64,000 nucleotides of DNA from a virus (Duplodnaviria > Caudoviricetes). The stretch's first letter is position 1. Each line of letters begins with the position of its first letter. The stretch covers positions 1,297 through 65,296 of the IMG/VR virus record IMGVR_UViG_3300037247_000437, one strand, 5' to 3'. Below are positions 10,067-62,761 of this stretch, in pieces. Below the pieces are notes generated by a model, which did not search any database, was not told the origin of the DNA, and was given only the letters and a program-made list of their open reading frames with translations. The position numbers and the translations under genes are program-made.

Positions 10067-10141
10067 AATTGTATAATATCAAGTGACAGGCTGGTGAAAA
10101 GCAGCGTTTGACCTTGAGGCATTGTATTAATCTAAGAAATG
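10067..10141 (+). repeat. 75-bp perfect direct repeat, copy 1
   Basis: AATTGTATAATATCAAGTGACAGGCTGGTGAAAAGCAGCGTTTGACCTTGAGGCATTGTATTAATCTAAGAAATG, identical to 10323-10397. Confidence 0.97.
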
Positions 10142-10342
10142 ACAATGAATAAGTTAGCATATATCCTCCAGGAGATCAATGTAAGTGCATTTGCCCGGTC
10201 AATAGGAATGAATGAAAGCCTATTAAGGAAATACACAAATGGTATTGCCACACCATCCGAGAAGCAGTTAAAAAGGATTGAATCAGCTATTCGGGAACTA
10301 GGCAAAAGATTAAAGATAGTAAAATTGTATAATATCAAGTGA
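10139..10342 (+). CDS. HTH DNA-binding protein resembling the C-terminal domain of Bacteroidota HicB-like antitoxins
   Basis: INVSAFARSIGMNESLLRKYTNG...PSEKQLKRIESAIRELG. Confidence 0.7.
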   Translation: MTMNKLAYILQEINVSAFARSIGMNESLLRKYTNGIATPSEKQLKRIESAIRELGKRLKIVKLYNIK

Positions 10343-10397
10343 CAGGCTGGTGAAAAGCAGCGTTTGACCTTGAGGCATTGTATTAATCTAAGAAATG
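10323..10397 (+). repeat. 75-bp perfect direct repeat, copy 2
   Basis: Identical to 10067-10141; supplies the stop of the HTH gene and the ATG of the next ORF. Confidence 0.97.
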
Positions 10398-10807
10398 GGA
10401 AAAATAAAATCAGAGGATATCGTCACTAATCAAGTTATAAGGAATCTTAAGATATACTCACACGAATTAAGCAAATTAACTTTAAGACTTGAGGAGTTTG
10501 CTGAAAAGACCGGAATATCAATCGAAGAAGCATATCAAGAAATCAACAAAAAATTGATCTTAGAAAATACAGAGGCAAACCAGAAAAAAAAGAACAAGTA
10601 AGGAGAATGATTTCAATGTCACAAATGAAAGCCTTTTCATTAGCTAGTCAGATGATGACAGTTGAAAGTCAGCCAATATAAACAAGATCATTTGAATTAG
10701 GACCAACCATAGTATCAGATTAAAAAGAAATCTAAAGATGGAAGAAAAGAAAAATACAAAATAATGAAAGTATTTCTGTTTCATAGTAGGATATACGAAA
10801 TAAAGAG

Positions 10808-10827
10808 TTATATTTGTGTATGTCAAA
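10808..10827 (+). promoter_or_regulatory. Bacteroidota -7 promoter box fused to a start codon (probable leaderless mRNA)
   Basis: TTATATTTGTGTATGTCAAA; identical at 50057-50076 and one mismatch at 44620-44639. Confidence 0.7.
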
Positions 10828-11212
10828 AGCAATAATAGCATTAAGATTCACATCAACTAGAAACGAAGCCGGATTTACTAGCGAAGATCAAGTTAATAAA
10901 GTTCAATTTAACGGCATTTGTGCTTATGATATTACTTCAGAAGTCGAAAGAATGATTGATGAAGATTACACGTTAGAGGATGCTATTGAAATCTGCGCCT
11001 TAAAGCAAGTTAAGTTTGACAACTGGCACGCGAGCAACACAAAAGGGAACTACGTAGCATTTAATTCTGAATTTGTTTCTCACGAAAGAGATAATCAGGA
11101 TTTTTTAGGAAACAGAGCAGTAATAGTAAAACTTAATGATTATATCGGATTTGGTCAAATAGATATGGGGTCAGCTAATTATAAGTGTTTACCATTTGAA
11201 TTAGTATCGTAA
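10820..11212 (+). CDS. Hypothetical protein
   Basis: ORF; ATG lies 3 nt after the TATATTTG box. Confidence 0.7.
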   Translation: MSKAIIALRFTSTRNEAGFTSEDQVNKVQFNGICAYDITSEVERMIDEDYTLEDAIEICALKQVKFDNWHASNTKGNYVAFNSEFVSHERDNQDFLGNRAVIVKLNDYIGFGQIDMGSANYKCLPFELVS

Positions 11213-42872: not shown

Positions 42873-43982
42873 ATGAAAATAGCTCTGATAGATGGTGATT
42901 TATTAGGATTAGGCAACCATAGATTTCCTAATTTGGCACTCATGAAAATATCATCATTTAGGAAAGTAATGGGTGATAACGTAACGTTAATTTTAGATTA
43001 TAAGGAGTTAACCGGGGGGTTATTTGTTAAAAAATACGATAAAATATTTATATCAAAAGCCTTTACGTGGAGTTATGTTCCTGAAGAAATCACATCAATG
43101 AGTAATGTTGTAACAGGCGGGACTGGTTTTTTTTATGACAAAGCTATACCATTGAGTTATGAGATAGAGCATTCAATGCCAGACTATTCATTATATGATG
43201 AATTTGTTAGGGTAAAAGAGTTAGCGCGTAATAAAAAAACGTCGTTAAAACATTATAAGGAATATTCAGTAGGATATTCAACAAGGGGCTGTTTTCGGGG
43301 ATGTGGGTTTTGTGTTTTAAAAAATGAACGAAAGGTTAACCTTCATTCATCCTTATTTGAATTCACAGACCCAACTAGAAAAAAAATAGCGATGCTTGAT
43401 GATAATATATTGGGGTGTGCAAAATATCCTCAAATATTTGAGCAAATAAAAGATACTGGAAAGGCATTCAAGTACACACAGGCTATGGACATACGCCTAA
43501 TGACTGATAAAAAAACAAAGATTATACTCCCCCTGAGATACGATGGTGATTATTTCTTTGCCTTCGACCTGTGGGATCATAAAGAAAAAGTAGAAAAAGG
43601 TTTAAAATTATGGAGTGAAAGCTATTATAAGATAAAAAATTCAAAGGCTAAAAGTATTCATACACAGTTATATTGCATTTGCGCTTATGATGATGACAAT
43701 AAATATGACTTAAATTTCTTTATCAATGACATTATAATTCTATTCAATAGGATTGAAATAATATTTAAGTACAAAGCAAACCCGTATGTAATGTGTTTTG
43801 AAAAATGGAAAGAGTCTCCTTTCCCGTATCTATACACAGCATTAAGGCAGTGGAGCCTACGCCCAGCTAATTGTAAGAAATATAGTTTCAATGAATATAT
43901 TGAAGTATCAGGTAAAACAAAAGCAATGCTTCTTAGAGATAAATATCCTGAATTTAGAAAATTATGGGACGTAAAATTATAA
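42873..43982 (+). CDS. Radical SAM protein
   Basis: FPNLALMKIS N-terminus; TRGCFRGCGFC (CxxxCxxC); LDDNIL. Confidence 0.9.
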   Translation: MKIALIDGDLLGLGNHRFPNLALMKISSFRKVMGDNVTLILDYKELTGGLFVKKYDKIFISKAFTWSYVPEEITSMSNVVTGGTGFFYDKAIPLSYEIEHSMPDYSLYDEFVRVKELARNKKTSLKHYKEYSVGYSTRGCFRGCGFCVLKNERKVNLHSSLFEFTDPTRKKIAMLDDNILGCAKYPQIFEQIKDTGKAFKYTQAMDIRLMTDKKTKIILPLRYDGDYFFAFDLWDHKEKVEKGLKLWSESYYKIKNSKAKSIHTQLYCICAYDDDNKYDLNFFINDIIILFNRIEIIFKYKANPYVMCFEKWKESPFPYLYTALRQWSLRPANCKKYSFNEYIEVSGKTKAMLLRDKYPEFRKLWDVKL

Positions 43983-44515: not shown

Positions 44516-44631
44516 ATTGGATCATACATATATTTTTTACGCCATCCGGAAACACCCTGAAAAATTTCAATATAAATGGATAAACTTGATTAAACATTAG
44601 GATAATCAAAAATAACCTATTATATTTGTTT

Positions 44632-45135
44632 ATGTCAAATGAGAAACGAAATATGGATATGATACTCGCGGAATTAAATACTACATTCAATTTAAACATC
44701 AAAAAAGATGTTAATAAAAGAAGTTCAGCAGGATCGTATAATAATAATACCGTATTTATTTCTAGTATTGAAGTATTAAAAAGCAAGTGTGGAGTCCAAT
44801 CAAACAGAGAAAATAAATACGGTCAAAAATTATATCCTAATACTATCTCTTTCGCCTCAGATGATTTGGAATCTATTACAATTGCACATGAATTCGGGCA
44901 TGCAATTGAGGATAATTATAGAAATGATGAAATGTTTATAAGTTGCAGAAATATTTGTGATGATTTAGCGCCTAAATATATTTCATTATACTCTGGCAAA
45001 GATAGCCCATTGAGTATTTATAGTGAGGCATTTGCAGAAACTTTTTGCTTATACATAATAAATCCAAGCAAATTACATCAAATTAACACTGAGTTATTCA
45101 GCGCCATTAATGAATTGTACGCATCATTTTTATAA
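44632..45135 (+). CDS. Zincin-like metallopeptidase
   Basis: TIAHEFGHAIE (HExxH) with downstream SEAFAE third ligand; leaderless-type start. Confidence 0.75.
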   Translation: MSNEKRNMDMILAELNTTFNLNIKKDVNKRSSAGSYNNNTVFISSIEVLKSKCGVQSNRENKYGQKLYPNTISFASDDLESITIAHEFGHAIEDNYRNDEMFISCRNICDDLAPKYISLYSGKDSPLSIYSEAFAETFCLYIINPSKLHQINTELFSAINELYASFL

Positions 45136-45987: not shown

Positions 45988-46478
45988 ATAAATTCAACCC
46001 GTCAATCTAAATAATTCACAGTATAATATAAAGACAATGTTAGACGAAAAAGGATTTGTATTTATTGATGATAATAATCGTCCGTTTTGGGTGGCTATGA
46101 GATTTGATAAGCCAACACTTTTGTATTGGCATGCAGATAAAAAATGGGTTAGGCTTAGGGAGGTTACAATGATTGAAATATGGCAAATGAACGACCAAGC
46201 AATCCCGGGACATCTTGCAGAAAAATACCATGAGCAACATAAAAAACAATTAATATAAACTAAAAGAAATTATGATAGCAGTATTTGGAGACAATCGAGA
46301 ATTTAGAATGATCAGGTGTTATCCTAGGAAACAATTCAATATAATAAGAGGTGTAGAAAGTATATCTGGCGTAAGGTGGGAGGGTGTAATATTTTTACAC
46401 GGATGGAAACAAATAACGGCATTATGCGAAGCTAGGGATTTGCTTGAAGTTAGACAGCCAGAGTTATTCAAATGACCT

Positions 46479-46979: not shown

Positions 46980-48011
46980 ATGGAAAATCAAGATTACCCG
47001 ATACCAACAGGATATCTTTTAAAAAGAGAATATTCAAAGGGGCCTCTGGAAACGCTTTCAATTGGAGACTATGGAAAGGAAAAAAATGTAAAGGCTGATT
47101 TCTTAGGATACAAAAACAAAATAACCGGCGTTCCTTCAGGATTTTGCAAGCCATTATCTGAAAAGTGGGTGATTACAATTTCAACTCAATACGGGTGTCC
47201 AATGAAATGCACGTTTTGCGATGTGCCTAATATCAAATTTAGAGGTAATGTTTCAATGGAGGATATGTTTAAGCAAATAAAAAATGCTATCTCAATGTTT
47301 CCAGATGTCCGGTATACTGAAAGATTAAATTTACATTTTGCACGAATGGGAGAGCCTATTTTTAATCGTGATGTTTTTTCAACTGCTGAATGGATTTGGA
47401 ATAACAAGAAAAGATTTCAAGATGAATTGAATTTAAGGATTGAAGTATTTCATCCCGTACTTACCACATCATTACCCAGGAAATTCAAAGGTCTTGTAAA
47501 GGCAATAGATGATTGGTGCTGGCTTAAAAATGAATTGTATAATGGTCAGGCTGGGTTGCAATTTTCGATTAATAGCACTGATGAAAATCAACGCTCTGAG
47601 ATGTTTAATGATATGCAATTGCCATTGGAAGATTTGTCAATCATAGCGGAGGGAATGCCTGATCCGATAAGCCGTAAGTATTGTTTAAATTTTGCATATA
47701 GTTCTGACTTTGAAATTGATGCCGATAAGTTGGTGTCATTATTTGATCCGGATAAATTCATGTGTAAAATTACTCCTATACATAATAATATTGCATGTGC
47801 TGAAAATGGGATCGAGACACTTGGAGGTTACGAAAGTTGGGAGCCATACGATAAGCCAGAATCAGATTTAAGAAAGGCCGGGTTTGATGTGCTTGTATTT
47901 GTACCTTCTGAAGATGAAGAGAAAGCGCTAGTAACATGTGGTAATACTATCATTGGAGGAGGTGAACTTCATTGCGATGATTCTTTAATTAAAATCGACG
48001 GATTAAAATAA
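46980..48011 (+). CDS. RlmN/Cfr-like radical SAM enzyme
   Basis: ISTQYGCPMKCTFC, MGEP, FSINS, C-terminal TCGN (equivalent of the ACGQ cysteine). Confidence 0.8.
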   Translation: MENQDYPIPTGYLLKREYSKGPLETLSIGDYGKEKNVKADFLGYKNKITGVPSGFCKPLSEKWVITISTQYGCPMKCTFCDVPNIKFRGNVSMEDMFKQIKNAISMFPDVRYTERLNLHFARMGEPIFNRDVFSTAEWIWNNKKRFQDELNLRIEVFHPVLTTSLPRKFKGLVKAIDDWCWLKNELYNGQAGLQFSINSTDENQRSEMFNDMQLPLEDLSIIAEGMPDPISRKYCLNFAYSSDFEIDADKLVSLFDPDKFMCKITPIHNNIACAENGIETLGGYESWEPYDKPESDLRKAGFDVLVFVPSEDEEKALVTCGNTIIGGGELHCDDSLIKIDGLK

Positions 48012-49929
48012 TTGACAGTATAATATAAACTAAATAAATTATGAGTGAAGAGAATTCCTGGGATAACCTGAAAGACCTGACTAAGCAGGAGATAATTGAT
48101 TTTTTGAAAACACAATTTCATTATAGGCTACCTTCAAAAAGAGAAGTAAAGTCATTTAAGTGGTCAAAGGATGCTGCTAAACTGCAAATAGAAATGGATG
48201 ATCATTTATCAAATCCGGTTGACCCTGACTTAATAAAAAAAAGGGATGAATACGCAAGATCATTCAATGCATCAAAAGACACGTCTGAGAGGGTTAGATT
48301 ACTGGATAAGATTAATCCAATAGATGATCTTATATCAAGAAATCACGAGAAATACAAAGCCATCGCACGGAAGCAGCAAAAGAATGATAAATATTATAAT
48401 TCGTTTAATCAATAATTCAATTTAAACTAAAGAATGCTTCTATTAACCTTGTTGAGTTTAAAGTAAAATAAACAGTAAAAATATAAAACTAAACTAAATT
48501 ATGAATATCTACGAATTTATTACACCAAGCGATCCGATTACATTCAAAACAAATGATGACAAAATTGCATTTATATGTGCTCTTTTCTTAGGCAATGGCA
48601 AGGCAGGATGTAAACGATTTGATGATTCTGGTAATGAAATATCAATTCCTACAATGTTAATGTTTTCAAAAGATCCTGATTCAGAAATAAAGAATTACAT
48701 AGGCGGTAATGCATCAGAGTATTTTGATTCAAAAAAGCACTTAATAAAAGCTGCATTTGAAAGCTTTTCATATGGAAATATAGAGGATAGGCGCTCATAT
48801 GACGATGCTATTATTGCTATTACTGATACTAATAAATTGAAAAACTTTAAAGCAAAGCATGAAGATAGAAATAGGAGTTCACTGAGTAAGTGGGTAAAAT
48901 CTGCATGGAAATTAGCTGAAGGCATTAATTAAATCTAAACTAAAGAAATTATGAATATCAGTGTATTAGAAAAAATATTAACATCAACCAGCGAATATTG
49001 GATTTTGAGAAAGGAAAATAAAGATAATTATAGCAAAGAACTTAGAGCGTACATTATAATGGTCGCGATCCCTACTAAAATTCAAGTCGATAAAGACCGG
49101 AAATTAATTACTTTGTGTGATCTTGAAGAATTAGAGGCTGTGAGTCTTGACGGAAATGTTTACCTAAATGAATCATATGCACCATTCCAGCTAGGGGTAA
49201 ATTTACATCACGTCACAGAAGTATTCCCTATCCCATCTCGGCAAAGGGAATTCATGATAAAAGCTCTTGAGTTAAAAAGTCATGATATTTATGATTACAA
49301 AAAATTGATTGATGAAGTATGTATCGATCAAGAAGAGAAATAATTGACAGTATAATCTAAACTAAACAAATTATGAAAACTCAAATTGAAAAAGCATATT
49401 ATTGGGTTAAATTTTACAATCACGACAAAAAACTAATTATGCTATTCAATGGCAAAAACTTTGAAGGTTTTAAAAGCGATCAATTCATAGGTGATGAGAT
49501 TGAAAGCTATAAAATAATTAATTCAATCTAAACTAAAGACAATGACTATAGAAGAAGAGGCTAAAGATATTTTAGATTGCATATCAGTTTTTGACCCTGA
49601 TGAAACATTGAAAAACAAGGGCAGATATTTTGATGTGATCCAAAATGATGTAAAAAAGCTATTGAAAAGAATCAAAGAAACTAAATAGTGATTTAAACTA
49701 AACTAAGTTATGAGATACAGAATTAAAATTACAACATTCAAAAACAAGCGTAAAGAATTCAGGGCACAAAAGAAAGTATTATTTGGATGGGCTGACCTTG
49801 ACTATTGCGGGGTAGTTTATCATTCAATTACTTGTCGTACGGATACAAGGACGGAGGCGTTAAATAGAATTTATTTACACTATGAAGGGAACACAGCGGA
49901 GCACACCATAGAATTTGAGTACATTACTA

Positions 49930-50002: not shown

Positions 50003-50076
50003 TTGCAATTATTTGTAAGTTTATCGGTATAAAGTTTGCAATTAATTGTAAGATGATTATATTTGTGTATGTCAAA
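50003..50076 (+). promoter_or_regulatory. Promoter with tandem near-palindromic operators and a leaderless start
   Basis: TTGCAATTATTTGTAAG (50003) and TTGCAATTAATTGTAAGAT (50036, identical at 52036), then TATATTTG-tgt-ATG. Confidence 0.65.
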
Positions 50077-50678
50077 CACGAAATTAACAATCGGAAACAT
50101 GAAAAAATTAGCATACAAAATAGGCAAAACAGAAAAAGAGGTTAAAGCACTTTATTTATCAGCTATTGATACTTTCATTCATTTTGGAGCAACAGAAGAA
50201 GCGGCCAGAGAAATGGCAAAAGAAACTTTCAGAGATACATTAGGACTTTAAACAACAATCACATCCACCAGCCCGGCAAGGTAACTACCTCCGGGATTAA
50301 GGTGGTAAAAATTCACTATAAAAATTAGCATTATGAACGTAAGGCAAAAATTAGAAAGCATGTTGGTAAATAAAGGCATGTTTAGCTCACAAGCAAATGA
50401 GGTTATGGAATTGGCAATACCTATATTAAGAAACATTATTGAAGGTTACGGCATTAGATTTGAAAGTGATAGCGATGGGTACCCAAATGTGATATATAAT
50501 GTATTGATGATGCAAATTAAGCCTATTGCGCTGAAGTGGATTGATGAAAATAAACCTATGGCATGGAATAGAGAAATGTTCACATAGTAAAAAATAATAC
50601 CTGCTAATTCTGGCAGATATCCCAGCCTGTTACCTTTCGAGGTACCGGATTGTGGCGGTACAGACTAAATAGAGAATT

Positions 50679-58466: not shown

Positions 58467-59006
58467 ATGATTATAAAATGCACTCATTGTGGTAAAAAAG
58501 TTGATAAAAGGAGTGGGCACGTAAACCGAGCCAATAAATTAGGCGCAAGATTGTTTTGCAATAGGACTTGTTACGGATTGGATAAAAGGCATAACAGATC
58601 TTTAGATGAGCAGAAAGAAGTTAAGAGGATTTACGATTTAGAATATTGTAAAAATAATTATATCAAAAGAAAGTCGCAGCAAAAGGAATGGTTTGATCAA
58701 GATTATGCCAAACATCCAGAAAAGTATAAGGAAAGGCGTAAAGCAAAATACGAGGCCCATTTGAAATACTTGAGTACAGATAAATATAAGGCTAAGAAAA
58801 AGAAATACGATCGTGAATTCAGAGCTAAAAAGAAGTATGGTGAATTTTGGGAATCATTTATTCACCTTCAGGACATAGATAAATTCATTGATAACCGAGA
58901 GGTTAAATTACAATTATGTTTAACTAATAAAAATCAAAAAAGAAAAAGGAACTATGAAAGAATTAACAGCAGTAAACTTGAAAGAAGCCCTTTGGGGAAC
59001 TCTTAA
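58467..59006 (+). CDS. Basic protein with N-terminal zinc-binding motif
   Basis: CTHCGK...FCNRTC. Confidence 0.6.
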   Translation: MIIKCTHCGKKVDKRSGHVNRANKLGARLFCNRTCYGLDKRHNRSLDEQKEVKRIYDLEYCKNNYIKRKSQQKEWFDQDYAKHPEKYKERRKAKYEAHLKYLSTDKYKAKKKKYDREFRAKKKYGEFWESFIHLQDIDKFIDNREVKLQLCLTNKNQKRKRNYERINSSKLERSPLGNS

Positions 59007-59167
59007 TGATCTGAAAGACAATAAAATTCAGCCAGCAGAAGCCGACGCAATTGCCTGTCAATCCAGAGAAATATTGAGAACTGTAAACACTCAATTAAGG
59101 ATTACAAGCCAAAGCAAAAGGAGTGTACCCGCTGAATTAATTACATTTTCAGAGAAGTAGTATTCAA

Positions 59168-59272
59168 TCCGGTGTAGCTCAATTGGTAGAGCACGAGGAA
59201 GCCAGGTTTCGACACCTGTACTATGGCTGGTCCATTCTGCGGTATACGGGTTCGATTCCCGTCGCTGGATCA
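59168..59272 (+). tRNA. tRNA-like RNA with a non-canonical, expanded anticodon arm (no assignable anticodon)
   Basis: Acceptor TCCGGTG/CGCTGGA, TA, D-arm GCTC-AATTGGTA-GAGC, T-arm ACGGG-TTCGATT-CCCGT; 53 nt between D and T arms instead of about 23. Confidence 0.75.
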
Positions 59273-59729
59273 ACTTTAAACATTGTAATATGGAAAAATA
59301 TAAATTAAATACTAAAATTGGTCAAGTGGTTAATCATATTGAAATAAATATTAGGGCTGATTCAGATAAAAATGATACAACCAGTTTATATAAAGAGGGC
59401 ATTTATATTGAAAACCTCAAGATAGTTTACCAGACATACCACAAGATTGCTTTAGACGACACTTGGATTACCCTGCTAGATCGTAAAAAAATAGATTACA
59501 GGAAAGAGAGATTTTATACGTATTTAGAAGATTGCATAGTTTCTATAAAAACAAATGAAACATATTTTCCTAATGGAGTTTTTGGAACAATATACACTAT
59601 TGGGAATACAAAAACAGCAATAAGAAAACTCGGCAAGGCCATTGAAAAAGAGGTTAATTCACGATATGGATTTCTTTCAAAGATCAATGTAAAGGAATTG
59701 ATTGATGAGTATTTAGAAAATAATAAATA

Positions 59730-60253: not shown

Positions 60254-60883
60254 ATGGCTGAAGGTAAAAAATCATTTATTGCTTATTGTGATTGGGGCGA
60301 AATCTTTGACGAATTAGAGGATAAAGAAGCCGGAAAACTTGTAAAGCATTTATTTGATTATGTTAGAGATCGTGATCCTAAAACAGATGACAAACTAATA
60401 AAAATATTGTTTATTCAGATCCAACAGTCATTAAAAAGGGATCTAAAAAAGTATGAAAACATTTGCGATCGTAATAGGATAAATGGTGGAAAGGGAGGAA
60501 GGCCAAAGAAACCCAAAGAACCCAATGGGTTATTAGGGAACCCAAAAGAACCCAAAGAACCCGATAAAGAGAGTGATACTGTTAATGGTACTGATAATGT
60601 AAATGGTAATGGTATTGAGAGTGTGATAAACAAGAACACACACCCGGCTTTAGTTGGATTTAGAAATAATGTTTTAAAGGAAGCAAATGAGCAAGGAATA
60701 AAAATTGAAGTAGCTGAGAAATTTATTAAACACTGGACTGCTATTGATGAACATACCAAATTATTTTTATATCAAGCAACTGAACCTTTTGGAATTCAAA
60801 ACCGATTAAAAAATTGGCAAAAAATCGAAAATAAAACCAATCAAGAAAATAAAGTAGTAGATATAAATTCAGTTAACTTATGA
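60254..60883 (+). CDS. Replication initiator (DUF6291-type N-terminus)
   Basis: KKSFIAY.DW..IFDEL.D.EAGKL..HLFDY, NRINGGKGGRPKK, C-terminal FIKHW...RLKNW. Confidence 0.8.
   Translation: MAEGKKSFIAYCDWGEIFDELEDKEAGKLVKHLFDYVRDRDPKTDDKLIKILFIQIQQSLKRDLKKYENICDRNRINGGKGGRPKKPKEPNGLLGNPKEPKEPDKESDTVNGTDNVNGNGIESVINKNTHPALVGFRNNVLKEANEQGIKIEVAEKFIKHWTAIDEHTKLFLYQATEPFGIQNRLKNWQKIENKTNQENKVVDINSVNL
60510..60562 (+). repeat. Iteron-like AACCC repeats inside the initiator gene (candidate origin)
   Basis: AACCC at 60510, 60519, 60539, 60549 and 60558, plus inverted GGGTT at 60527; lambda O-like intragenic ori arrangement. Confidence 0.5.
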
Positions 60884-61566
60884 ATCAGGCATACCAACAC
60901 CTCAAAGAAGGAACCGAACATTATAATTTCATTAAAGAAAATATTGTATCATTAATTAATCGATGGAATGCGGTACATACAAAATCTCAATCAATCCCTG
61001 ATGCCGTAATAAAAGAATTCAAAAGCGTAATATACTACAATCATAATATTACAATTGACGATATAAAACCGGCAATTGATCGCGGCATGATGGGTCAATT
61101 TGGAGAAAATTACATCCTGGATGCTCAGACATTTTATAGATGGTTTACCGGATTAATGAAGCAAAAAGTAAACGAGCGTATTAAAGGCGCTGAAGCTTAC
61201 AAAGTATCAAATGTACCTGATATAACAGAAGAACAAAAACAAGCCAACAGGCAAGCCACAAGAACGGAACTGATAGAAGTATTCATGAAGTATTATAATT
61301 TCTACATGGAACACGGCGAAGTTGACGGAAACATAAAGAGATACTATGTAGTATTTTGGGATTGGTTCAGAAAACTTGGATTAATTGATATTTCAGAAGA
61401 TGAAGAAAGCAGAATGAACGAAGTTGAGGCAAAACACCTCCGGGATCTTAGATCAAAATTAAGTACGCCGGAATTAAGTCAATCGAAATACAAAAAGTTC
61501 ATTGAGATATTCAAAAGTTTGGAAGGATTAGGAATTGAAGATCAATTAAAAGCAATTAAACTATAA
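60880..61566 (+). CDS. Replication-associated hypothetical protein
   Basis: Coupled to the initiator gene; GQFGENY.LD..TFYRW. Confidence 0.5.
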   Translation: MNQAYQHLKEGTEHYNFIKENIVSLINRWNAVHTKSQSIPDAVIKEFKSVIYYNHNITIDDIKPAIDRGMMGQFGENYILDAQTFYRWFTGLMKQKVNERIKGAEAYKVSNVPDITEEQKQANRQATRTELIEVFMKYYNFYMEHGEVDGNIKRYYVVFWDWFRKLGLIDISEDEESRMNEVEAKHLRDLRSKLSTPELSQSKYKKFIEIFKSLEGLGIEDQLKAIKL

Positions 61567-61582
61567 ATAAACACTGAAAATT

Positions 61583-62761
61583 ATGGAATTAATAAAGACA
61601 AAAAACGGAAATATTATTAAAGTATACGCTAAGACTATTGAGGATACAGCGATGCGACAAATCAAAGAACTTGGTGAATTTGATCCTTATAAAGATTCCA
61701 AGATTAGAATTATGCCTGATTGCCACGCGGGGGCAGGGTGTACAATTGGCACAACAATGGAGATTAAAGATAAAATTACGCCTAATTTAGTTGGAGTTGA
61801 TATTGGTTGTGGGATGCTTACTGTGATGTTGGCTGATGATGAAATTGATTTACAGAAACTAGATGCTATTATTAATAAATATATACCTAACGGTTTCAAT
61901 ATCCACACTAAGCAAAAGGCAGAATTTGAATTTGATAAACTTTTTGCAAAAACCTTGAATATAGACCGTGCAAAATTATCACTTGGTTCTTTAGGCGGTG
62001 GAAATCATTTTATTGAAGTTGGAAAAAACTCAAAAGGTGAATTATTTTTAGTCATCCATTCGGGATCTCGAAACATCGGGGGACAAGTTGCGAAATATTA
62101 TCAAAACATTGCAATTGATAATTTAACCGATAACTCAAGAGAGCGCAAAGAATTGATTGAGCGATTAAAAAAAGAAGGTAGGCAAAAAGAAATTGGCAAA
62201 AAGTTGAATAAGCTTAAAAGGCCAGTAATTAATAATGATTTAGCATACCTAATTGGCGGTGATTTTGATAATTACATGCACGATATGGAATTGATGCAGA
62301 AATACGCTTCATTAAACCGAAAAACTATAGCTGAAATTATTTTAAGAAAAGCTGGATTGTGTGCTATTACTAATTTTGAGACAATACACAACTATATTGA
62401 CTTTGATAGAATGATGATGAGAAAAGGCGCTGTATCAGCTGAAGAAGGCGAGGTTTTATTAATACCGATTAATATGCGTGACGGGTCAATTATTGCAAAA
62501 GGTAAAGGGAATGCAGACTGGAATTACTCAGCACCACATGGAGCAGGGCGTTTAATGGGACGAAGGCAAGCGCATAAAAATTTAGATTTAGATACTTTTA
62601 AGGATCAAATGAAGGATATCTATTCTACTTCTGTACTTACCGAAACATTAGATGAGGCACCGGATGCCTATAAGCCAATGAATGAAATTATTGATTTAAT
62701 TGGTGATACTGTTGATATTATAGATATCATTAAGCCAATATATAATTTTAAGTCACATTAA
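61583..62761 (+). CDS. rtcB: RtcB RNA ligase
   Basis: MPDCHAG, GVDIGCG, GSLGGGNHF, HSGSR, HNY, RKGA, SAPHGAGR, DEAP.AYK. Confidence 0.96.
   Translation: MELIKTKNGNIIKVYAKTIEDTAMRQIKELGEFDPYKDSKIRIMPDCHAGAGCTIGTTMEIKDKITPNLVGVDIGCGMLTVMLADDEIDLQKLDAIINKYIPNGFNIHTKQKAEFEFDKLFAKTLNIDRAKLSLGSLGGGNHFIEVGKNSKGELFLVIHSGSRNIGGQVAKYYQNIAIDNLTDNSRERKELIERLKKEGRQKEIGKKLNKLKRPVINNDLAYLIGGDFDNYMHDMELMQKYASLNRKTIAEIILRKAGLCAITNFETIHNYIDFDRMMMRKGAVSAEEGEVLLIPINMRDGSIIAKGKGNADWNYSAPHGAGRLMGRRQAHKNLDLDTFKDQMKDIYSTSVLTETLDEAPDAYKPMNEIIDLIGDTVDIIDIIKPIYNFKSH

What the first reader, a model, noticed from the sequence alone, without database searches (positions are those of the whole stretch)
59168..59272. tRNA-like RNA with intact elbow but a 30-nt enlarged, anticodon-less arm
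SEEN: canonical acceptor, D and T arms, but 53 nt (59193-59245) replace the ~23-nt anticodon/variable region. The insert folds as AGCCA/TGGCT with an inner (C)AGGT-TTCGAC-ACCT(G) hairpin whose loop resembles a second T-loop. There is no clean 5-bp stem with a 7-nt loop and no encoded CCA. KNOWLEDGE: RtcB, encoded 2.3 kb downstream, ligates 2',3'-cyclic-phosphate and 5'-OH ends in tRNA splicing and repair. INFERENCE: an intron-containing tRNA, a tRNA mimic or decoy for anticodon nucleases or uncharged-tRNA sensors, or a decaying tRNA.
Basis: partly seen in the sequence, partly recalled or inferred. Interest (0 to 1): 0.7.

Follow-up and report, generated by a model that had tools for sequence, protein, structure and literature searches.

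The report
Phage glycine-type tRNA gene with disrupted anticodon arm
The only tRNA gene of a 65-kb marine-sediment phage has intact outer arms but about 31 extra bases buried in its anticodon arm, so it most likely cannot decode, and nothing ties it to the RNA ligase gene nearby.

Summary
Window 59168-59270 (+) matches the Rfam tRNA model (42 bits, cut-off 29) with perfect acceptor, D and T arms and a 44-nt insertion where the anticodon arm belongs. It is the only tRNA hit in a complete 65,296-bp tailed-phage genome. It is not truly anticodon-less: GCC-A sits at positions 34-37 and the discriminator is T, so it is a tRNA-Gly(GCC) derivative. A metagenome contig with the same flanking arms carries an ordinary Gly(GCC) arm instead.

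The insert was found in no other sequence, so its conservation cannot be judged. It resembles none of 115 other oversized viral tRNA inserts, and its arm is no more stable than shuffles. It has no bulge-helix-bulge motif and no ribozyme match. No single excision restores a loop with both U33 and a purine at 37.

The RtcB link fails in both directions. RtcB's close homologues sit in unrelated phages that mostly lack tRNAs, and 0 of 41 viral records with oversized tRNA-like genes encode RtcB.

Best reading (0.45): a recently disrupted, non-decoding phage tRNA gene, belonging to the already reported but unexplained class of short "introns" in phage tRNA genes. Splicing or a decoy/scaffold role is not excluded, because no RNA data exist. 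Interest is modest.

The parts
59168..59270 (+). tRNA-like gene (tRNA-Gly(GCC)-derived), 103 nt including discriminator T; no encoded CCA
   Evidence: Rfam RF00005 at 42 bits, model 1-71. It is the only tRNA hit in the 65,296-bp genome.
59168..59192 (+). 5' acceptor strand (59168-59174), T8 A9, and the D arm GCTC-AATTGGTA-GAGC (59177-59192)
   Evidence: Sequence and Rfam alignment. The exact 5' half recurs in ordinary viral tRNA-Asn, Thr and Trp genes.
59194..59241 (+). 48-nt arm replacing the 17-nt anticodon arm: weak stem CGAGG (59194-59198) / CTGCG (59237-59241) closing a 38-nt loop
   Evidence: Stem has 4 of 5 pairs. MFE is not better than shuffles.
59201..59204 (+). GCC-A at tRNA positions 34-37 (retained Gly anticodon plus A37); preceded by A32 and A33 instead of pyrimidine-U
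   Evidence: Sequence. An ordinary Gly(GCC) arm occupies the same place in an X3 contig (table 5c).
59205..59235 (+). Candidate 31-nt insert if read at the canonical 37/38 position. It contains the hairpin CAGGT-TTCGAC-ACCTG (59203-59218, overlapping the anticodon) and TGGCT-GG-TCC (59224-59233), which pairs with GGA-AGCCA (59197-59204)
   Evidence: Duplex energy -10.2 kcal/mol against -6.1 +/- 1.9 for shuffled inserts, P 0.036. Unique in the genome. Absent from viral contigs and genome contigs.
59242..59270 (+). Variable region GTAT, T arm ACGGG-TTCGATT-CCCGT, 3' acceptor strand CGCTGGA, discriminator T
   Evidence: Sequence and Rfam alignment.
58467..59160 (+). Two overlapping small ORFs (179 aa and 68 aa) that precede the tRNA slot; the 68-aa ORF stops 7 nt before the element
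   Evidence: L140 has homologues of both (50% and 74% identity), followed 14 nt later by an ordinary tRNA-Thr(TGT). No Pfam or PHROG hit.
61583..62761 (+). RtcB RNA ligase gene: a neighbour shown for context, with no demonstrated link to the element
   Evidence: Pfam PF01139 E 1.6e-60 and phrog_1075 E 3.3e-133. No co-occurrence found.

Best explanation
This is a phage tRNA gene of the Gly(GCC) kind. It sits in a tRNA slot behind a conserved two-ORF module. In this phage lineage its anticodon arm has been disrupted by about 31 extra bases that fold back on the anticodon.

The acceptor stem, D arm, variable region and T arm, including the elbow contacts, are intact. The transcript is read through from the upstream genes. 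It should therefore still be cut out by RNase P and 3' processing and receive CCA, giving a stable tRNA-shaped RNA of about 106 nt (inferred).

This RNA has no 7-nt anticodon loop, and no single excision can give one with both U33 and a purine at 37. It therefore most likely cannot decode: it is a recently disabled tRNA. The RtcB gene 2.3 kb away is an independent, widely shared phage RNA-repair gene and not its splicing partner.
For: - tRNA body: Rfam 42 bits with a 44-nt insertion, the only tRNA hit in the complete genome. ARAGORN finds none without introns. With introns allowed it gives only a forced Ser(CGA) model with a 10-nt intron at 30/31 and an unpaired extra arm.
- Gly ancestry: GCC-A lies at positions 34-37 and the discriminator is T. 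An X3 contig matches the element up to 59191 and again from 59241, with 18 other letters between that give stem CTAGC / GCTGG and loop TTGCCAT, an ordinary Gly(GCC) arm (table 5c). The same run holds relatives of the upstream ORF at about 90% identity whose contigs stop at 59191/59192 (table 8).
- tRNA slot: the L140 homologues of the two upstream ORFs are followed by a normal tRNA-Thr(TGT).
- No sign of a selected insert: the arm MFE is not better than shuffles. The insert is unique in the genome and absent from IMG/VR, 185,579 species genomes and the held loci. It is unlike 115 other inserts; 98% of shuffles reach the observed best score.
- No splicing signature: the one exact bulge-helix-bulge candidate lies off the anticodon position, and 104 of 300 shuffles give at least one. 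There is no EndA in the phage genome and no ribozyme or other Rfam hit at E up to 10.
- Excision cannot restore a canonical loop: with the CGAGG / CTGCG stem, every 7-nt loop left by a single excision has A at position 33 or T at position 37 (read).
- RtcB is unlinked.
Against: - The acceptor, D and T arms show no decay at all. If this is a pseudogene it is very young, and compact phage genomes tend to lose dead DNA.
- The insert pairs with the anticodon segment better than 96% of shuffled inserts, as in real pre-tRNA anticodon-intron helices. This test was chosen after seeing the pairing.
At least one such phage family is clearly under structural selection: 12 of 23 predicted pairs show compensatory changes. 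Lak megaphage tRNA 'introns' are reported as conserved (10.1101/356790, passages read). The class-level prior for function is therefore not low.
- I could not show that the ordinary Gly(GCC) contig in X3 lies in the relative phage. That record's flanks were not listed, and the D arm is shared by many tRNAs in that run (depth 72 in bin 59164-59187).
- There are no RNA data.
Confidence: 0.45

Rival explanations
1. It is a genuine intron-containing tRNA-Gly(GCC). A 31-nt intervening sequence (59205-59235) at the canonical 37/38 position pairs with the anticodon. An unidentified endonuclease that leaves 2',3'-cyclic phosphate and 5'-OH ends cuts it out, and the phage or host RtcB joins the exons.
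For: - GCC-A sits exactly at positions 34-37, directly after a stem.
- The insert-anticodon duplex is -10.2 kcal/mol, P 0.036 against shuffles.
- RtcB is encoded 2.3 kb downstream on the same strand.
- Phage tRNAs with short unexplained 'introns', including a Gly tRNA, are in print (10.1101/356790, passages read).
- An insert-less Gly(GCC) form with the same outer arms exists in a metagenome.
Against: - The spliced loop would have A32 and A33 instead of the near-universal U33 (recalled knowledge). No other single excision gives both U33 and a purine at 37.
- There is no bulge-helix-bulge motif above chance, no EndA in the phage and no ribozyme.
- The insert-less X3 arm has a different stem, so the two are not simple plus/minus-intron alleles.
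- The acceptor lacks G1-C72 and G3-C70, which bacterial GlyRS uses (recalled).
- RtcB does not co-occur with such genes: 0 of 41 records. RtcB's close homologues sit in phages without tRNAs.
Confidence: 0.12
2. It is a functional non-decoding tRNA-shaped RNA. The tRNA body serves as a processing and stability scaffold, and the enlarged arm is the working part. It could be a decoy for host tRNA-targeting defence nucleases or other tRNA-body binders, or an RNA or protein-binding hairpin.
For: - The elbow and acceptor are perfectly preserved while the anticodon arm is replaced.
- A recurrent phage family with the same architecture shows covariation inside its enlarged arm.
- 13 further viral tRNA-like genes have perfect stems closing 19-41-nt loops.
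- Earlier notes of this scan describe anticodon-less tRNA-scaffold RNAs in large phages (e1-5890208; a lead only).
Against: - It is a singleton: no second copy exists in any collection searched, so there is no evidence of selection on the arm.
- The arm is no more stable than shuffles.
- There is no complementarity to the phage genome beyond chance: the longest match is 10 nt, the same as the modal value for shuffles.
- A stoichiometric decoy against an enzyme is mechanistically weak (inference).
Confidence: 0.22
3. It is an assembly artefact: a chimeric join of different tRNA genes in a metagenome assembly.
For: tRNA D and T arms are shared by many genomes in metagenomes, and contigs of related strains break exactly at the D arm (table 8).
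Against: - Run X1 holds all 68 sampled 31-letter words of 58900-59600 in independently built contigs. This is probably the same reads, so it is not independent of the sample.
- A chimera of two tRNAs would not create about 31 bases that match no tRNA part.
- The acceptor strands still pair 7 of 7.
Confidence: 0.04

Closest known systems
'Enigmatic introns' in tRNA genes of Lak megaphages (Devoto et al., bioRxiv 10.1101/356790; passages read)
   Same: Both are phage tRNA genes called 'pseudo' or missed by bacterial settings because they are longer than expected. The insertion lies in the anticodon region, there is no self-splicing signature, and a Gly tRNA is among them. Insert-bearing and insert-less forms exist.
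   Different: The Lak cases lie in large tRNA sets of 540-kb phages, and their inserts are reported as identical across cohorts. Here it is the single tRNA gene of a 65-kb phage, the insert is a singleton, and excision does not restore a canonical loop. Their Table S6 (intron sequences) could not be seen, so identity with a reported insert is untested.
Archaeal and eukaryal pre-tRNAs with bulge-helix-bulge introns, cut by EndA/TSEN and joined by RtcB
   Same: The insert lies next to position 37, there is an anticodon-insert helix, and an RtcB ligase gene is in the genome.
   Different: There is no bulge-helix-bulge motif above chance and no EndA in the phage. The virus is a tailed phage whose RtcB is nearest to Bacillus phage RtcB. 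The spliced loop would lack U33.
YrlA-type bacterial Y RNAs (tRNA-like module, encoded with rsr and rtcBA)
   Same: Both have a tRNA-like acceptor/D/T module without a working anticodon, near an rtcB gene.
   Different: In YrlA the RNA ends lie in the Ro-binding stem, not at the acceptor (recalled). Here the ends are at the acceptor. No Rfam family other than tRNA matches at E up to 1, and there is no Ro/TROVE gene.
tRNA pseudogenes and disrupted phage tRNA genes
   Same: An essential feature, the anticodon stem-loop, is lost, and the element is lineage-specific.
   Different: All other arms and tertiary-contact positions are intact, with none of the scattered decay expected of an old pseudogene.
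Recurrent phage tRNA-like family found here (alignment A2; 11 distinct members)
   Same: It has the same D and T arms, a 7-bp acceptor, an arm of about 46 nt in place of the anticodon arm, and tRNA-model scores of 30-50 bits.
   Different: That family's arm is conserved and covaries, and it sits in long tRNA arrays. The window's insert shares no sequence with it.

Membership tests
Canonical tRNA (Rfam RF00005) | Score above the gathering threshold over the full model | tested here: met
   42 bits against 29, model positions 1-71.
Canonical tRNA (Rfam RF00005) | 7-bp acceptor stem, 4-bp D stem with A14/G18G19/A21, 5-bp T stem with a TTCGANN loop | tested here: met
   Sequence, Rfam alignment, acceptor 7 of 7 pairs.
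Canonical tRNA (Rfam RF00005) | 5-bp anticodon stem closing a 7-nt loop with U33 and a purine at 37 | tested here: not met
   The stem has 4 of 5 pairs and closes a 38-nt loop. ARAGORN finds nothing without introns. Position 33 is A.
Bulge-helix-bulge intron pre-tRNA (EndA + RtcB splicing) | Two 3-nt bulges separated by a 4-bp helix at the exon-intron junctions | tested here: not met
   One exact candidate (59226/59243), not at the anticodon position; 104 of 300 shuffles give at least one.
Bulge-helix-bulge intron pre-tRNA (EndA + RtcB splicing) | Splicing endonuclease available | tested here: inconclusive
   PF01974 is absent from the phage genome, while the control rang in 4 archaea. The host is unknown, so its enzymes could not be checked.
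Bulge-helix-bulge intron pre-tRNA (EndA + RtcB splicing) | Excision yields a canonical mature anticodon loop | tested here: not met
   All 8 possible single-excision 7-nt loops on the CGAGG / CTGCG stem lack U33 or a purine at 37 (read). The ARAGORN deletion scan did not discriminate: it accepted 315 of 732 products.
Group I intron in a tRNA gene | Catalytic core of roughly 200 nt or more, matching the Rfam group I intron model | tested here: not met
   The insert is about 31 nt, and no group I hit appears at E up to 10.
YrlA / bacterial Y RNA | Match to the Rfam Y-RNA-like models and a partner Ro (TROVE) gene | tested here: not met
   Only the tRNA model matches. PF05731 is absent, while the control rang in 2 genomes.
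Phage tRNA genes with short non-self-splicing insertions ('enigmatic introns', Devoto et al.) | Phage tRNA gene with an intact body, longer than normal because of an insertion in the anticodon region, without a ribozyme signature | tested here: met
   The genome is a tailed phage with terminase, portal and tape measure genes.
Phage tRNA genes with short non-self-splicing insertions ('enigmatic introns', Devoto et al.) | The insert is conserved among related phages | tested here: inconclusive
   No second copy of the insert exists in any collection. Relatives of the flanking ORF carry another tRNA or none.
tRNA pseudogene | Loss of an essential element with scattered decay elsewhere, and no functional product | tested here: inconclusive
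   The anticodon arm is lost, but the other arms are intact. Expression is not testable because no RNA run holds the region.

The most novel reading that the evidence does not exclude
The element is a working member of a widespread, uncharacterised class of phage tRNA genes that carry short hairpin inserts masking the anticodon. These inserts are removed by a protein route not described for bacteria: a non-bulge-helix-bulge endonuclease that leaves cyclic-phosphate ends, followed by RtcB-type ligation. Such a route could make tRNA maturation conditional on infection or on RNA-repair activity. Alternatively, these RNAs are used unspliced as tRNA-scaffolded RNAs.
Probability: 0.15. Interest if true: 0.75.

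Novelty: new member of a known kind. Interest (0 to 1): 0.3.

Why it matters
If the element is simply a disabled tRNA, it matters little. It would be one more example of how phage tRNA genes turn over, and a caution that a nearby rtcB gene does not imply splicing.

If it is processed or used, it would add a small, tractable case to an open question: what the short, non-self-splicing insertions in phage tRNA genes are for, and how, if at all, bacteria or their phages remove them. Here there is one tRNA gene, one ligase gene and a 65-kb genome.

The by-product may matter more. Oversized tRNA-like genes are frequent in viral contigs, and one recurrent family has a covarying enlarged arm.

Tried and rejected
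- RNA evidence: no RNA holder of the region was listed, so expression and splicing could not be examined.
- Remnant hypothesis: I tested whether the insert contains a decayed copy of the ordinary Gly arm seen in X3. The local alignment score was 12, and 13% of shuffles score as well. Dropped.
- ARAGORN deletion scan: 315 of 732 in-silico deletion products were accepted, under many anticodons. Uninformative, because the tRNA body carries the score.
- Antisense or scaffold target in the phage genome: the longest complementary match is 10 nt, at chance level.
- Mobile hairpin: no similarity to 115 other inserts or to any of 1.3 Mb of held loci, and no repeat in the genome.
- attP-type explanation: no integrase family among the 10 larger ORFs scanned, and the genome has direct terminal repeats. 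Smaller ORFs were not all scanned.
- Own promoter or terminator: none specific to the element.
- Relatives through the downstream ORF: none.
- Relatives through the exact 3' half, the 5' junction and the X3 18-mer: none.
- Prokaryote tRNAs with the same arms: none.
- GenBank phages: no match with the region, the portal protein or the 228-aa ORF.
- The 228-aa ORF upstream of rtcB has 18 unannotated homologues, some on contigs of 55-59 kb.
- Structure prediction and complex prediction were not used.
- Earlier notes of this scan: nothing for this genome or this sequence.

Full report
WHAT IS THERE

The window is bases 1297-65296 of a complete 65,296-bp virus record with direct terminal repeats. 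All large genes are on the + strand and G+C is 31-39%. The terminase, portal, tape-measure and structural genes mark it as a tailed phage. A run labelled marine sediment metagenome holds all sampled words of the region and may be its source.

At 59168-59270 (+) the Rfam tRNA model scores 42 bits (gathering score 29) over its whole length, with 44 nt inserted in the anticodon arm. It is the only tRNA hit in the genome. A permissive scan of 59050-59400 gives no other family below E = 1.

Read, the element has these parts:
- A 7-bp acceptor, TCCGGTG / CGCTGGA, with two G-T pairs.
- Discriminator T, followed by CAA, so no encoded CCA.
- A standard D arm and A26.
- A weak stem, CGAGG / CTGCG, with 4 of 5 pairs.
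- A 38-nt loop (59199-59236).
- A 4-nt variable region.
- A standard T arm.

ARAGORN finds nothing by default. With introns allowed it gives only a forced Ser(CGA) model with a 10-nt intron at position 30/31. One amendment: the loop opens with AAGCCA, so GCC-A stands exactly at positions 34-37.

WHAT tRNA IT DERIVES FROM

GCC at 34-36, A37 and discriminator T point to Gly(GCC). (That bacterial tRNA-Gly uses U73, C35 and C36 is recalled knowledge.)

Laying contigs of four DNA runs on the region gave a direct comparison. One X3 contig (depth 6.7) fits the element up to 59191 and again from 59241, with the 18 letters TACTAGCTTGCCATGCTG between. In place, these read as A26, stem CTAGC / GCTGG and loop TTGCCAT, which is an ordinary 72-nt tRNA-Gly(GCC).

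The same run holds relatives of the upstream ORF at about 90% identity, and their contigs end at 59191/59192 (table 8). I could not see the flanks of the Gly contig, and the D arm is shared by many tRNAs in that run. Linkage to the relative phage is therefore plausible but not shown.

The identity signals are mixed. The exact 5' half recurs in 11 viral contigs. With T at position 1 it belongs to tRNA-Asn(GTT). With G at position 1 it belongs to Thr(TGT) or Trp.

THE LOCUS IS A tRNA SLOT

The element starts 7 nt after the stop of a 68-aa ORF and ends 19 nt before the next ORF. No promoter or terminator of its own was found.

In L140, homologues of the two upstream ORFs (50% and 74% identity) are followed 14 nt later by an ordinary tRNA-Thr(TGT). 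Six more distant relatives of the 68-aa ORF (57-69% identity, L142-L147) have no tRNA after it.

IS THE INSERT A SELECTED STRUCTURE?

I found no second copy. The searches were:
- The 19-base core in IMG/VR.
- The D-arm/insert junction in 185,579 species genomes.
- The 3' half in IMG/VR.
- Up to 4 mismatches in 1.3 Mb of held loci, which gave only two chance-level hits.
- The phage's own genome.

Other tests gave little support:
- The 48-nt arm folds at -9.6 kcal/mol, against -11.0 +/- 2.8 for shuffles.
- Its best similarity to 115 other oversized inserts is below what shuffled inserts reach.
- Complementarity to the rest of the genome is at chance level.

One feature is nominally unusual. The 3' part of the insert (TGGCT-GG-TCC) pairs with GGA-AGCCA, which contains the anticodon. 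The duplex energy is -10.2 kcal/mol against -6.1 +/- 1.9 for shuffles, P 0.036. A perfect 5-mer complement has P 0.055. This was tested after I had seen the pairing.

IS IT AN INTRON?

The evidence is against it:
- Only one exact bulge-helix-bulge candidate exists. It lies outside the anticodon position, and 104 of 300 shuffles give at least one.
- The phage has no EndA-family gene.
- No ribozyme model matches, and 31 nt is far too short for a group I intron.
- With the CGAGG / CTGCG stem kept, a single excision leaves the first i and the last 7-i letters of the 38-nt loop. For i of 2 or more, position 33 is A. For i of 0 or 1, position 37 is T. No product has both U33 and a purine at 37, which nearly all elongator tRNAs have (recalled).
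- The ARAGORN test of 732 deletion products accepted 315, under many anticodons, and so decided nothing.
- The X3 arm has a different stem, so the two forms are not simple alleles with and without an intron.

IS RtcB ITS PARTNER?

RtcB at 61583-62761 is real, but it is common in phages: 687 of 50,697 records.
- Fourteen viral loci encode relatives. Ten are 73-81% identical (L001-L010) and four are 46-52% identical (L011-L014).
- These loci share nothing else with the window within 6 kb at the DNA or protein level, except one unrelated 87-aa ORF in L001.
- Only 1 of the 11 loci scanned has a tRNA, and it is an ordinary one.
- Of 10 whole records scanned, 6 have no tRNA hit.
- 0 of 5 records have the window's portal protein. 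The ligase gene therefore travels between unrelated phages.
- In the other direction, 0 of 41 viral records with oversized tRNA-like genes have an RtcB match, including 0 of the 10 that are at least 90% complete. One further record was not held. Many of these records are fragments.
- A host RtcB could still serve, so this does not exclude splicing. It does remove the neighbourhood argument.

THE WIDER CLASS

- 45 are tRNA-Tyr(GTA) genes with eukaryote-style introns, many on contigs named as giant-virus bins.
- 11 form a recurrent phage family.
- 13 have a good acceptor and a perfect 5-bp stem closing a 19-41-nt loop.
- 21 have a good acceptor but a weaker stem.
- 7 look spurious.

The recurrent family (alignment A2) has covarying helices inside its arm of about 46 nt, with 12 of 23 predicted pairs showing compensatory changes. 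It lies in long tRNA arrays.

Devoto et al. (10.1101/356790, passages read) reported oversized 'pseudo tRNAs' of Lak megaphages as tRNAs with 'enigmatic introns', including Gly(TCC). They suggested such genes are common in large phages. My literature searches aimed at a mechanism found none. That covers only the open-access library searched, and for most papers I saw only listings and abstracts.

Earlier notes of this scan (leads, not evidence) describe similar hairpin inserts in the only tRNA gene of other phages.

VERDICT

The element is a real tRNA-derived gene of a kind already reported and still unexplained.

For this copy the evidence leans toward a recently disrupted, non-decoding tRNA-Gly(GCC) gene (0.45). 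It is a singleton insert with no structural signal beyond a marginal anticodon pairing, no canonical product after excision, and a likely ordinary allele in relatives. Its transcript would still be matured into a stable tRNA-shaped RNA. That last step is inferred from the intact acceptor and T domain, which RNase P and the CCA-adding enzyme recognise (recalled knowledge).

The rivals are a functional tRNA-shaped RNA (0.22), true splicing (0.12) and an assembly artefact (0.04). The remainder is left open.

The RtcB connection should be dropped unless RNA data say otherwise.

Noticed in passing
L041:2372-2473(-), L052:11687-11788(-), L061:11337-11439(+), L062:136-238(+), L066:8642-8743(+), L068:3591-3693(-), L071:4959-5062(-), L078:4654-4755(+), L106:8495-8597(+), L032:2545-2647(-), L047:5151-5257(+): A recurrent phage tRNA-like RNA family of 102-107 nt. 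It has an intact acceptor, D arm and T arm, and 6 of 11 members have an encoded CCA. An arm of about 46 nt replaces the anticodon arm and carries the conserved motifs TCANGG and GGY-RAAGG-RCC. 12 of 23 predicted pairs show compensatory changes. Members lie inside long tRNA arrays and score 30-50 bits on the tRNA model. It is not in this scan's earlier notes by sequence. I did not check whether it is in print.
   Followed up: partly
L047:2375-2772(+): A viral contig carries a bacterial class A RNase P RNA (162.5 bits, gathering score 100) in the middle of an array of about 20 tRNA genes that also holds an oversized tRNA-like gene.
   Followed up: no
L025:944-1041 and 1346-1439; L127:94-196; L053:2543-2649: Further oversized viral tRNA-model hits of 94-107 nt, two of them in tandem in L025. 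In L127 the enlarged loop reads as one C, about 30 extra bases, then TTTTAA, as if a Lys(TTT) loop were split after position 32. The L053 form recurs identically on five contigs.
   Followed up: no
window 61583-62761 and L001-L010: rtcB is shared at 73-81% protein identity among phages that share neither neighbours nor the portal protein with this one. It behaves as a mobile accessory gene.
   Followed up: partly
window 10807-10834, 44619-44646, 50056-50083; and 46009-46047, 48006-48044, 49338-49376: Two families of intergenic repeats. One contains TTATATTTG, which resembles the Bacteroidota -7 promoter consensus TAnnTTTG (recalled). The other contains TTGACAGTATAAT. They are probably phage promoters and hint at a Bacteroidota host.
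   Followed up: no
window 10067-10168 and 10323-10424: A 102-nt direct repeat, 88% identical, with copies 256 nt apart (family D1).
   Followed up: no
window 60880-61566: The 228-aa ORF that ends 17 nt before rtcB has 18 unannotated homologues at 55-80% identity, some on contigs of 55-59 kb. It has no Pfam or PHROG family and is not next to rtcB in L001-L014.
   Followed up: partly
window 42873-43982 and 46980-48011: Two radical-SAM-like proteins are encoded 3 kb apart: phrog_9298 at E 2.5e-41, and a weak Radical_SAM Pfam hit below the cut-off plus phrog_24834. Their function was not examined.
   Followed up: no
loci such as L026, L028, L031, L034, L037: 45 distinct tRNA-Tyr(GTA) genes with 12-34 extra bases after position 37, many on contigs named as giant-virus bins. 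They look like eukaryote-type tRNA-Tyr introns carried by giant viruses.
   Followed up: no
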